The position numbers were made by a program. 23,307 bases of DNA from Escherichia coli (lineage in GTDB: Bacteria; Pseudomonadota; Gammaproteobacteria; Enterobacterales; Enterobacteriaceae). Of this stretch, positions 6,001-9,000 are shown piece after piece. The stretch lies in NCBI RefSeq assembly GCF_003334255.1, contig NZ_QOWU01000066.1; one strand, written 5' to 3'. Each line of letters begins with the position of its first letter. Position 1 is the first letter of the stretch.

Positions 6001-9000
6001 CTGAGCAATTGCGTTGAGCAATGCGTGCTTGGTCCAGGTGTGGAAGTGCTCGGTCAGACGATAGGTCGTACCCACATACGGGAACTGCTCTTTTTTACCC
6101 ATCCGCAGCGCGTCTTGTTCATACAGACGAACAACCGGGTTAGACACCACGTTCGGATGCAGCGGGTTAGTGCCCAGCGGCGTTTCAATCGGCTCGTAGT
6201 GTTCCGGGAACGGACCTTCCGCCATTTTGTTGATGGCAAACAGGCGTCCCATCCCTTCCGGCTGCATGATAAACGGCCCGGTTGGCGTACCCGGTGCGGC
6301 ATTGCCGAAGTCAGGAATATCGTTACCCGTCCACTTGCTGCCGTTCCACTGGATCAGCATCCGTTTCGGATCCCACGGTTTACCGTTGATATCCGCCGAA
6401 GCACGGTTGTACAGCACGCGACGGTTGAGCGGCCACGCCCAGGCCCATCCCAGCGTATTCCCCAGACCGGACGGGTCGGAGTTATCGCGGTTAGCCATCT
6501 GGTTGCCCTGCTCTGTCCAGCTACCGGTGTAGATCCAGCAAGAAGATGCGGTTGTACCGTCATCACGCAGATGCGCAAAGCTACTCAGCAACTGACCTTT
6601 CTTCGCAATAAGCACGCCATTAGCGTCATAGAGATCTTCCAGCGCGTAGCCGTTGTTCTCTTTAGCCACTTCGTCAGATTGCGGTTCGTGCGGCTGCTTG
6701 TAGTTCCAGCTCATCTTCATCAGCGGTTCTACGCCTTTACCACCTTCGGACTGGTACAGCTCGCGCAGATGATGGTAGATACCCGCCAGAATTTCACCGT
6801 CGTTACGCGCTTCGCCCGGCGCGTCCTGACCTTTCCAGTGCCACTGCAACCAGCGACCGGAGTTAGCGATAGAACCATCTTCTTCAGCAAAGCAGGTCGA
6901 AGGCAGACGGAATACTTCAGTCTGAATAGACGCCGGATCGACATCGTTCGACTCACCGTGGTTCTGCCAGAAGGTAGAGGTTTCAGTCACCAGCGGATCG
7001 ATAACCACCATGTACTTCAGCTTGCTCAGGCAGCTCACCACTTTGTTTTTGTCCGGGAAGGACGCAACCGGGTTAAAGCCCTGGCAGAAATAACCGGTGA
7101 CTTTGCCTTCATCCATCATGTTGAAATACTTGATGACGTCGTAGGTCTGGTCCCACTTCGGCAGCCAGTCATAGCCCCAGTTGTTCTCTTTCTGCGCGGC
7201 ATCGCCATAGAAAGATTTCATCAGGCTAACGAAGAACTTCGGATAGTTGCTCCAGTAGTTCACCTGATCAGCCAGCGTCGCTTTCGGCGTGTTCGCTTCC
7301 AGATACGACTGCAAATCAACCTGTTTTTCTGACGGCAGCGTCAGATAACCTGGCAGGCTGGTAGAGAGCAGGCCTAAGTCAGTCAAGCCCTGAATGTTGG
7401 AGTGACCACGCAATGCGTTCACGCCGCCACCGGCCATACCCATGTTACCGAGCAGCAACTGGATCATCGCCATAGTACGGATGTTCTGCGCACCCACAGT
7501 GTGCTGCGTCCAGCCCAGCGCGTACAGGAAGGTGGTTGTGCGATCCGGTGCGCTGGTGGAGGCCAGCACTTCACACACTTTCAGGAAGTCGGCTTTTGGC
7601 GTACCGCAGATGTTTTCAACGACGTCCGGCGTGTAGCGGGAAACGTGCTCTTTCAGCAAGTTCCACACACAGCGCGGATGAGTCAGTGTTTCATCGCGTT
7701 TCGCATAGCCGTTTTCATCGAACTGATAGTTCCAGGACGATTTATCGTATTGACGTTTTTCAGCGTCGTAGCCGCTGAACAGACCGTCTTCGAAAGCAAA
7801 ATCATCACGCACCAGCAGGCTGGCGTTGGTGTAATGCTTAACGTATTCGGCGTTGATTTTGTTGTTTTCGATCAGGTAGCGCAAAACGCCAGACAGGAAC
7901 GTAATGTCCGTACCGGAACGAATAGGCGCGTAAATATCCGCCACAGAAGCGGTACGCGTAAAACGGGGATCGACAACGATCAAGGTTGCGTCGTTGTTGT
8001 TTTTCGCTTCCATCGCCCAGCGGAAACCGACGGGATGCGCTTCAGCAGCGTTACCGCCCATCACCATCACGACGTTAGCGTTTTTGATATCCACCCAGTG
8101 GTTGGTCATCGCACCGCGACCAAATGTTGGAGCAAGACTTGCTACCGTTGGTCCGTGTCAGACGCGCGCCTGGTTGTCTACCGCCAGCATCCCGAGGGAG
8201 CGGGCAAATTTCTGGGTCAGCATCCCGGTTTCGTTGCTGGCACCGGAGGCACACAGCATACCGGTAGAAAGCCAACGGTTTACCGTTACGCCCTGCTCGT
8301 TCTTTTCAATAAAGTTAGCGTCACGGTCAGCTTTCATCAGCTTCGCAATACGGGAGAATGCTTCTTCCCAGCTAATGCGCTGCCATTTGTCAGAACCTGG
8401 CGCACGATATTCCGGGTAGCGCAGACGGTTTTCACTGTTGACGTAATCCAGCAAACCGGCCCCTTTCGGGCACAGCGCACCACGGCTTACCGGATGATCC
8501 GGGTCACCTTCAATGTGATAAATCGCTTCTCTGGCGTTTTTTGCGCCATCACCCAGGCTATACATCAATAGCCCGCAACCTACGGAACAGTATGTGCAGG
8601 TGTTACGGATCTCTTTAGCGCGTAATAATTTGTAGTTTCGCGCCTGAGCCAGTGCTTGCTTCGGGGCAAAGCCCAATGCCGCTACTGTTGTTCCAGCCAT
8701 ACCGCCCGCGCAGATTTTAAAAAATTGTCTGCGACTGACGTCCATTGCTTTCCTCTTTTTTCAGGGGTATTACTGCGCGAGGAAACTAACAGTAAAATTC
8801 TGAATCTTTTTGCGCGAAATCAAAAAGAACATCTGTTTGCCACAAAATAATCCGCCTTCGCAAATTGACCTACCTCAATAGCGGTAGAAAAACGCACCAC
8901 TGCCTGACAGGCCAGTTAAAAAAATGCTATAAAATTCAGCTTAATTTTTAACGGCAAGAGAGACAAAACAGCGAGCATGACACGACAAAAAGCAACGCTC

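What the first reader, a model, noticed from the sequence alone, without database searches (positions are those of the whole stretch)
8110..8160. Selenocysteine recoding in fdnG; the ORF track splits one gene into two
The 195-aa and 803-aa minus-strand ORFs are in the same frame and separated by a single TGA at 8160..8158. The joined 1015-codon product is the Fdh-N catalytic subunit with Sec at residue 196. A stem (GACCAA/UUGGUC) begins 4 nt after the UGA, in the position of a bacterial SECIS element. Naive ORF calling would mis-annotate this as two genes or a pseudogene.
Basis: partly seen in the sequence, partly recalled or inferred. Interest (0 to 1): 0.45.

Follow-up and report, generated by a model that had tools for sequence, protein, structure and literature searches.

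The report
Known selenocysteine codon in fdnG
The in-frame TGA is the well-known selenocysteine codon of the E. coli formate dehydrogenase-N gene fdnG, followed by its known SECIS RNA hairpin. The finding is correct but ordinary, and matters only as an annotation trap.

Summary
The minus-strand ORFs 8745..8158 (195 aa) and 8109..5698 (803 aa) share one frame. They are separated by a single TGA (8160..8158) and 16 sense codons, giving a 1015-residue read-through product with the recoded position at 196.

That product matches E. coli FdnG (PDB 1KQF) end to end, and the PDB chain has a non-standard residue X exactly at 196. RefSeq annotates the same DNA as one 3048-nt fdnG CDS. fdnH and fdnI follow, and the window is 100% identical to E. 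coli chromosomes.

Rfam SECIS_3 matches 8163..8105(-) at 84.3 bits (threshold 63). The part that matters is the apical hairpin, 15-32 nt from the U of UGA (8146..8129). It carries U17, G23 and U24 at the same positions as in fdhF, and it shows compensatory changes and invariant synonymous sites.

Folding energy of the single sequence is not significant. The support comes from comparison with relatives.

Verdict: already known. Both split fragments do circulate as separate "proteins" in public databases.

The parts
5698..8745 (-). fdnG, the complete CDS for formate dehydrogenase-N alpha subunit (1015 codons plus stop), read through the UGA at codon 196
   Evidence: One-frame translation. Matches PDB 1KQF_A over 1-1015 at 2402 bits. 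NCBIfam TIGR01553 scores 1625 bits against a cut-off of 814, as one stretch covering 2-1014. RefSeq annotates identical DNA as a single fdnG CDS.
8158..8160 (-). UGA codon 196, recoded as selenocysteine
   Evidence: It is the only internal stop. It aligns to the non-standard residue X196 of 1KQF_A. The codon is TGA in 92 of 94 distinct environmental homologues that fit the search pattern and TGC in the other 2.
8105..8163 (-). SECIS element as defined by Rfam SECIS_3 (RF01989), full-length match
   Evidence: cmscan gives 84.3 bits against a gathering score of 63, E = 5.2e-19, over model positions 1-59 of 59. The same 59 nt in K-12 fdoG give the same score.
8129..8146 (-). Apical SECIS hairpin GG-U-AGCAA-GUC-UUGCU-CC, nt 15-32 counted from the U of UGA; the inferred SelB-binding minihelix
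   Evidence: Present in the MFE fold. The helix is 88.5% paired across 92 homologues, and 3 of its pairs show changes on both sides. All 92 homologues have a hairpin of at least 5 bp here.
8144..8144 (-). U17, the bulged U in the E. coli-type fold
   Evidence: Unpaired between paired G16 and A18 in the MFE fold. It sits at the same position as U17 of fdhF (PMC8659212). Invariant in 92/92, although it is the second base of a Val codon.
8137..8138 (-). G23 and U24 in the apical loop
   Evidence: Same numbering as the fdhF determinants. Both are invariant in 92/92. U24 is a synonymous third-codon position (AGU or GGU) that never varies.
8148..8158 (-).
   Evidence: MFE fold. The variable pairs 9-42 and 12-39 are mostly unpaired in this register in homologues.
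8113..8123 (-).
   Evidence: MFE fold.
4801..5685 (-). fdnH, formate dehydrogenase-N beta (Fe-S) subunit
   Evidence: NCBIfam TIGR01582, 482 bits against a cut-off of 335. RefSeq annotation.
4155..4808 (-). fdnI, formate dehydrogenase-N gamma (cytochrome b) subunit
   Evidence: NCBIfam NF007558, 487 bits against a cut-off of 339. RefSeq annotation.

Best explanation
This is the E. coli fdnG gene, the catalytic molybdopterin subunit of nitrate-inducible formate dehydrogenase-N. Its codon 196 is a UGA that is decoded as selenocysteine rather than as a stop. The mechanism is inferred from the established E. coli pathway and was not assayed here. The mRNA directly 3' of the UGA folds into a SECIS hairpin. 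Its apical minihelix, 15-32 nt from the U of UGA, has bulged U17 and loop G23/U24, and it binds the C-terminal domain of the elongation factor SelB carrying Sec-tRNA(Sec) and GTP. When the ribosome reaches the UGA, the lower helix (the GACCAA/UUGGUC stem) has been unwound in the mRNA tunnel. The apical hairpin then sits at the tunnel entrance, tethers SelB to the A site and lets it outcompete RF2. Sec196 becomes a ligand of the molybdenum centre. What is shown here: the frame, the identity of the gene, the SECIS model match, conservation and covariation of the hairpin, and the presence of tRNA-Sec in the species. What is inferred: SelB binding and actual selenium insertion in this strain.
For: There is one frame with a single internal TGA. 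The product matches 1KQF_A (E. coli Fdh-N alpha) over 1-1015, with the structure's X exactly at 196. NCBIfam TIGR01553 covers the protein in one stretch across the UGA. RefSeq annotates identical DNA as a single fdnG CDS, with fdnH and fdnI downstream and yddG upstream. The window is 100% identical to E. coli chromosomes. Rfam SECIS_3 scores 84.3 bits against 63. U17, G23 and U24 are at the same offsets as in fdhF (PMC8659212). In 92 distinct environmental TGA homologues the apical helix is 88.5% paired, with changes on both sides at 3 pairs. The whole-structure covariation score is 0.149 against 0.067 in shuffles (0 of 500 reach it), and it is higher than every slid control. The synonymous sites at col 15 (ACG) and col 24 (AGU/GGU) are invariant in 92/92, while other four-fold sites use 3-4 bases. 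All 92 present G23/U24 in a hairpin loop, with mean energy -10.5 kcal/mol against -3.7 for synonymous recodings; the two TGC (Cys) homologues have no such hairpin. fdnG and its paralogue fdoG are 60/60 identical from the UGA onward, while flanking stretches with identical peptides differ at 3-4 of 30 nt. The 66-nt segment is at least 99% identical in 5389 of 5434 records and occurs in all 5426 E. coli genomes. tRNA-Sec is annotated in 5425 of 5426 E. coli genomes.
Against: Folding energy of the single sequence is unremarkable: z = -0.16; 14.5% of synonymous recodings fold the apical segment as well, and 41.6% fold nt 1-50 as well. RNAalifold on the mixed 92-sequence set gives only a weak consensus (-2.18 kcal/mol), because the hairpin register differs between clades. 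The E. coli sequence or close relatives are probably among the sequences the Rfam model was built from, so that hit partly re-identifies a known entry. The 92 homologues were ascertained with a pattern that fixes many lower-stem bases, and they are phylogenetically related, so the shuffle counts are not probabilities. The Cys control has only 2 sequences. selA, selB and selD were not checked, and no experiment shows selenium in this strain's protein.
Confidence: 0.98

Rival explanations
1. The TGA is a true stop. The locus is either two separate genes (195 aa and 803 aa) or a pseudogene inactivated by a nonsense mutation.
For: Mechanical ORF calling yields exactly these two ORFs. Both fragments are deposited as separate proteins in public collections.
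Against: The TGA sits at the position of the non-standard residue X196 of the solved Fdh-N structure. It is TGA in 92 of 94 distinct homologues and TGC in the other two, which is the Sec/Cys pattern rather than random nonsense. The 16 codons between the TGA and the next ATG are conserved coding sequence (HGPTVASLAPTFGRGA), and the family profile runs uninterrupted across them. The segment is conserved in all 5426 E. coli genomes. A SECIS follows the codon.
Confidence: 0.01
2. The UGA is read through without the Sec machinery, for example by near-cognate tRNA-Trp or Cys leakiness, and the downstream stem is incidental coding sequence.
For: The hairpin is thermodynamically unremarkable in the single sequence. 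The peptide itself predisposes to hairpins: 44.5% of synonymous recodings meet a lax hairpin criterion.
Against: The apical stem shows compensatory changes, and synonymous sites are frozen at G15 and U24. Native hairpins are about 7 kcal/mol more stable than synonymous recodings on average. fdnG and fdoG have no synonymous differences over 60 nt. tRNA-Sec is present in the species. The PDB chain 1KQF_A has a non-standard residue (X) at 196, and related PDB entries are named 'selenocysteine-containing'.
Confidence: 0.01

Closest known systems
E. coli K-12 FdnG (Fdh-N alpha subunit; PDB 1KQF/1KQG; NCBIfam TIGR01553)
   Same: Same gene. The alignment is end to end (1-1015) with the non-standard residue at 196. 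The operon (fdnGHI) and neighbours (yddG, narU-narZYWV) are the same.
   Different: There is one substitution in the part of the alignment shown, F342 here against L342 in 1KQF. This is strain-level variation only.
fdoG SECIS of E. coli (Rfam SECIS_3, RF01989)
   Same: The 59-nt SECIS is identical base for base and gives the same Rfam score of 84.3 bits. Sec is also at codon 196.
   Different: It lies in the paralogous operon fdoGHI. The flanking coding sequence differs at 10-37% of nucleotides.
fdhF SECIS of E. coli (Rfam SECIS_2, RF01988), the experimentally dissected reference
   Same: UGA CAC GG at the start; the apical minihelix begins 11 nt after the UGA; U17, G23 and U24 are at the same offsets; the GUC loop core is the same (PMC8659212).
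   Different: The stem sequence differs (UGCA/UGCA against AGCAA/UUGCU). ViennaRNA predicts a 4-nt loop in fdhF against 3 nt here (or 5 nt if the A-U pair opens). The apical element is 17 nt in fdhF against 18 nt here. The lower helix differs, and it belongs to a different Rfam family. Sec is at codon 140 of a 715-aa cytoplasmic enzyme.

Membership tests
Bacterial SelB-dependent selenocysteine recoding site (UGA + SECIS) | In-frame UGA inside an otherwise continuous, conserved ORF, at a position that is Sec or Cys in homologues | tested here: met
   a single internal TGA; X196 in 1KQF; 92 TGA and 2 TGC among distinct homologues.
Bacterial SelB-dependent selenocysteine recoding site (UGA + SECIS) | Stem-loop immediately 3' of the UGA, with the apical minihelix starting about 11 nt after it | tested here: met
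   The MFE fold puts the apical hairpin at nt 15-32 from the U of UGA. Spacing is identical to fdhF (PMC8659212).
Bacterial SelB-dependent selenocysteine recoding site (UGA + SECIS) | E. coli SelB determinants: bulged U17 and loop G23, U24 | tested here: met
   U17 (8144) is bulged, and G23/U24 (8138/8137) are in the loop. All three are invariant in 92 homologues.
Bacterial SelB-dependent selenocysteine recoding site (UGA + SECIS) | RNA-level selection on the hairpin: covariation and constrained synonymous sites | tested here: met
   The caveat is that RNAalifold's own consensus was weak because the hairpin register shifts between clades.
Bacterial SelB-dependent selenocysteine recoding site (UGA + SECIS) | The host encodes the Sec machinery (selC tRNA-Sec, selA, selB, selD) | tested here: inconclusive
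   None of these genes lies in the window. selC is annotated as tRNA-Sec in 5425 of 5426 complete E. coli genomes. selA, selB and selD were not searched; their presence in E. coli is stated in PMC4009273.
Bacterial SelB-dependent selenocysteine recoding site (UGA + SECIS) | Selenium is actually incorporated at the UGA, dependent on SelB and the SECIS | not testable with these tools
   This needs 75Se labelling, mass spectrometry or genetics. It is published for K-12 fdnG (my own knowledge: Berg et al. 1991, J Biol Chem) and is consistent with the X196 residue in 1KQF_A.
Rfam SECIS_3 (RF01989) | Score at or above the curated gathering threshold over the full model | tested here: met
   84.3 bits against 63, model positions 1-59 of 59, not truncated.
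Formate dehydrogenase-N alpha subunit (NCBIfam TIGR01553 equivalog) | Whole-protein score above the curated cut-off, with full-length coverage | tested here: met
   1625 bits against 814.2, covering residues 2-1014 on profile positions 1-1009 of 1009.
Formate dehydrogenase-N alpha subunit (NCBIfam TIGR01553 equivalog) | Operon with the Fe-S beta and cytochrome b gamma subunits (fdnGHI), distinguishing Fdh-N from Fdh-O | tested here: met
   fdnH scores above cut-off on TIGR01582. fdnI scores 487 bits on NF007558 (Fdh-N gamma) against 268 bits on the Fdh-O gamma model NF007924. RefSeq names and synteny agree.
Formate dehydrogenase-N alpha subunit (NCBIfam TIGR01553 equivalog) | N-terminal twin-arginine (Tat) signal for periplasmic export | tested here: met
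   The motif S-R-R-Q-F-F-K at residues 4-10 can be read directly in the translation. No signal-peptide predictor was run.

The most novel reading that the evidence does not exclude
Nothing in the window itself is new. The most novel reading left open comes from the comparative set. In 59 of 92 environmental FdnG-type SECIS elements, ViennaRNA predicts that U17 is paired rather than bulged, for example GGUCUCA-AGUU-UGGGACC. If so, many bacteria would use a SelB recognition mode that needs only the loop G-U and not the bulged U required in E. coli. Separately, the perfect 60-nt identity between the fdnG and fdoG SECIS regions could be maintained by gene conversion rather than by selection alone.
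Probability: 0.3. Interest if true: 0.15.

Novelty: already known. Interest (0 to 1): 0.04.

Why it matters
It matters only as an annotation and quality-control point. A six-frame or naive gene caller splits fdnG at Sec196. The resulting 195-aa and 803-aa fragments are widespread in public protein collections, each on at least 1000 contigs, and one copy carries an unrelated name. A scan that flags in-frame TGA followed by a SECIS match would rejoin such genes. Biologically this is the textbook E. coli selenoprotein FdnG, and nothing about the mechanism, sequence or context departs from what is known.

Tried and rejected
(1) My first collection scan (genome contigs) used a pattern with 24 Ns instead of 25. 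It was therefore out of register and returned only one hit, a Cupriavidus necator Cys-type homologue that fits only because it lacks one base. The single genome-contig scan was wasted by this error. I checked the corrected pattern on the window before using the metagenome scan.

(2) Thermodynamic significance of the single sequence was tested and is not significant (z = -0.16; synonymous-recoding p about 0.08-0.15). The claim rests on the covariance model and on comparison with relatives, not on folding energy.

(3) RNAalifold on all 92 sequences gave a weak consensus (-2.18 kcal/mol), because clades use different registers. I replaced it with a per-sequence hairpin test that does not depend on register, with synonymous-recoding controls.

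The invariant pairs are fixed by my search pattern and so say nothing. The two free pairs (9-42 and 12-39) are mostly unpaired in that register. I do not count the lower stem as a conserved feature.

(5) The Cys-homologue control yielded only 2 sequences, so it is suggestive only.

(6) The primary paper on the minimal SECIS (Liu et al. 1998, PMC147357) is not held in the library. I used the review PMC8659212 and PMC4513850 instead.

(7) The pseudogene, two-gene and SECIS-independent read-through explanations were considered and rejected (see the rival explanations).

Full report
OBSERVATION. The ORF list shows two minus-strand ORFs, 8158..8745 (195 aa, ending ...DNQARV) and 5698..8109 (803 aa, starting MTNHW...). 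Translating 8745..5698(-) in one frame gives a continuous 1015-residue product. Its single internal stop is at codon 196, followed by HGPTVASLAPTFGRGA and then the Met that begins the 803-aa ORF. The sum 195 + 1 + 16 + 803 = 1015 holds, and there is no frameshift. The stop is TGA at 8160..8158. After it come CACG, then GACCAA (8153..8148), then 24 nt, then its exact complement TTGGTC (8123..8118).

WHAT THE GENE IS. The whole window is 100% identical to E. coli chromosomes. Identical DNA is annotated in RefSeq as a single 3048-nt CDS, 'fdnG: formate dehydrogenase-N subunit alpha'. It is followed by fdnH and fdnI and preceded by yddG, with narU-narZYWV further on.

The read-through protein, with C substituted for the stop, matches PDB 1KQF chain A (nitrate-inducible formate dehydrogenase major subunit) over 1-1015 at 2402 bits. 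The PDB sequence has the non-standard residue X exactly at 196. The only other difference in the part of the alignment shown is F342 against L342.

NCBIfam TIGR01553 (formate dehydrogenase-N alpha, equivalog) scores 1625 bits against a cut-off of 814, in one stretch covering residues 2-1014. The family profile therefore runs straight across the UGA. The downstream ORFs score above cut-off as the beta subunit and the Fdh-N-type gamma subunit. The twin-arginine motif SRRQFFK can be read directly at residues 4-10.

THE RNA ELEMENT. An Rfam scan of the whole window returns a single match: SECIS_3 (RF01989) at 8163..8105(-), 84.3 bits against a gathering score of 63, E = 5e-19, full length.

The minimum-free-energy fold of the 56-61 nt starting at the UGA has two parts. 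The second is an apical hairpin, GG-U-AGCAA-GUC-UUGCU-CC. Counting the U of UGA as 1 (window coordinate = 8161 minus position), the apical hairpin is nt 15-32 (8146..8129). U17 (8144) is bulged, and G23/U24 (8138/8137) lie in the loop.

These offsets are exactly those of the reference fdhF SECIS, which I extracted from K-12 for comparison. A review describes that element as a 17-nt upper stem-loop (nt 15-31) lying 11 nt from the UGA, with U17, G23 and U24 as the conserved positions and U17 and G23 named as SelB-binding sites (PMC8659212). The K-12 fdoG SECIS is identical to this one over all 59 model positions. fdhF belongs to the sister family SECIS_2.

IS IT MORE THAN CHANCE? Judged by folding energy of this one sequence, it is not. 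The z-score against dinucleotide shuffles is -0.16. When the peptide is kept and codons are drawn at random, 14.5% of recodings fold the apical 18 nt at least as well, and 41.6% fold nt 1-50 at least as well. The Rfam hit is strong, but it probably re-identifies a sequence close to those the model was built from. I therefore looked for independent comparative evidence.

A degenerate pattern anchored on the conserved peptide (U/C-H-G-P ... F-G-R-G-A-M-T) left the 25 nt that include the apical hairpin unspecified. Scanning metagenome contigs with it gave 120 stretches. With the window and its identical E. coli copy added, these collapse to 92 distinct TGA sequences (91 of them environmental) and 2 TGC sequences.

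On the ungapped alignment (A1), the E. coli structure is 82.1% paired. Its covariation score is 0.149 against 0.067 +/- 0.004 in shuffles (0 of 500 reach it), and it beats every slid control. The apical helix is 88.5% paired and has changes on both sides at three pairs:

- 18-30: GC 50, CG 17, AU 1, UA 1.
- 19-29: GC 44, UG 44, CG 1.
- 21-27: CG 54, AU 11, GC 1.

Two synonymous third-codon positions inside the element never vary. These are G15 (Thr is always ACG) and U24 (Ser or Gly is always AGU or GGU). Other four-fold sites in the same sequences (cols 9, 12, 33, 36, 42, 45, 48) use three or four bases.

A test that does not depend on register shows that all 92 TGA sequences form a hairpin of at least 5 bp presenting G23/U24 in its loop. 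The mean energy is -10.5 kcal/mol, against -3.7 for 9200 synonymous recodings, of which 44.5% meet the same criterion. Neither TGC sequence forms such a hairpin.

Within E. coli, fdnG and its paralogue fdoG are 60/60 identical from the UGA onward. Neighbouring 30-nt blocks that encode identical peptides still differ at 3-4 synonymous positions. The 66-nt segment is at least 99% identical in 5389 of 5434 records, is present in all 5426 complete E. coli genomes, and occurs twice per genome at the median.

Three caveats apply. The homologues are related to each other. The pattern fixes many lower-stem bases. RNAalifold's own consensus on the mixed set is weak (-2.18 kcal/mol), because different clades use different registers.

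GACCAA/UUGGUC is real in E. coli, but it is the lower helix. Of its pairs, those that never vary are fixed by my search pattern and are uninformative. The two that are free (9-42 and 12-39) are unpaired in this register in 60 and 58 of 92 sequences. [quoted passage not shown] The review reports only about a 25% loss of read-through when the lower region is unpaired.

MECHANISM (inferred from the established E. coli pathway). SelB carrying GTP and Sec-tRNA(Sec) binds the apical hairpin and is delivered to the UGA in competition with RF2. Sec196 then serves in the molybdenum active site. tRNA-Sec (selC) is annotated in 5425 of 5426 E. coli genomes. I did not search for selA, selB or selD. E. coli has exactly three selenoprotein genes, fdnG, fdoG and fdhF (PMC4009273). 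The original demonstration that the fdnG opal codon encodes selenocysteine is Berg et al. 1991 (my own knowledge; not held in the library).

RIVALS. A genuine stop (two genes or a pseudogene) is contradicted by several results:

- The Sec/Cys pattern at this codon in homologues.
- The profile running uninterrupted across the codon.
- Conservation of the segment in every E. coli genome.
- The SECIS that follows the codon.

SECIS-independent read-through is contradicted by the RNA-level constraint on the hairpin. Each rival gets about 1%.

ANNOTATION POINT. The exact 195-aa and 803-aa sequences both exist as separately called proteins, each seen on at least 1000 contigs. One 195-aa member is named 'sulfate ABC transporter substrate-binding protein'. 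NCBI's PGAP pipeline handles the gene correctly.

VERDICT. This is an already known textbook case, and its interest is very low except as a check on gene callers.

ERROR LOG. The genome-contig scan was wasted on a pattern that was one N short.

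Noticed in passing
window 8101..8160(-) compared with L124 7183..7241(-) (K-12 fdoG): fdnG and its paralogue fdoG are 60/60 identical from the UGA onward, with no synonymous differences. Flanking 30-nt blocks that encode identical peptides differ at 3-4 positions, and other blocks at up to 11 of 30. This is consistent with nucleotide-level selection on the SECIS, or with gene conversion between the paralogues.
   Followed up: partly
alignment A1 (metagenome loci L003-L122), columns 15-32: Only 33 of 92 FdnG-type SECIS hairpins have the E. coli-style bulged U17. In 59, ViennaRNA predicts U17 paired with A30 or G31 (for example GGUCUCA-AGUU-UGGGACC and GGUGGCCA-GUU-UGGCCGCC). 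The loop G23-U24 is invariant. The bulged U may not be a general requirement outside enterobacteria.
   Followed up: partly
proteins P0001, P0002 and P0004 (cluster of window 8161..8745(-) and 5701..8109(-)): The two halves of fdnG are deposited verbatim as separate proteins, each on at least 1000 contigs. One 195-aa copy (EFN8991448.1) is named 'sulfate ABC transporter substrate-binding protein', a clear misnomer.
   Followed up: yes
L002 164..218 (Cupriavidus necator SHC 2-3, NZ_SROX01000001.1): A Cys-type (TGC) FdnG-like gene appears to lack one base just after CHGP. Read in frame it runs C-H-G-P-R-F-R-P-stop, but restoring one base gives ...VSTLVPSFGRGAMT. This is either a pseudogene or an error in the draft assembly. 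It was found only because of my off-by-one pattern.
   Followed up: no
window 10432..11388(+): The window has an intact 318-aa ORF where RefSeq annotates a leucine-rich-repeat protein. In the strains that otherwise match the window at 100% (G1/2, G6/7, G8), this gene is interrupted by IS1A. Other strains carry IS3-family or ISVsa5 insertions there. The gene looks like a hotspot for IS insertions.
   Followed up: partly
window 7720..7722(-) (codon 342 of fdnG): There is a Phe here where the crystallised K-12 protein (1KQF) has Leu. It is the only substitution seen in the displayed part of the alignment and is presumably neutral strain variation.
   Followed up: no
window 4155..4850(-): The mechanical ORF list extends fdnI to a TTG start (231 aa). 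The annotated protein, which also matches the profile in full, is 217 aa starting at 4808 and overlaps the end of fdnH by 8 nt.
   Followed up: yes
L123 1912..2432(+) (K-12, between gltP and yjcO, next to fdhF): Five tandem matches to Rfam naRNA4 (RF02564), a REP-derived nucleoid-associated RNA. They lie outside the window and were seen only while fetching fdhF.
   Followed up: no
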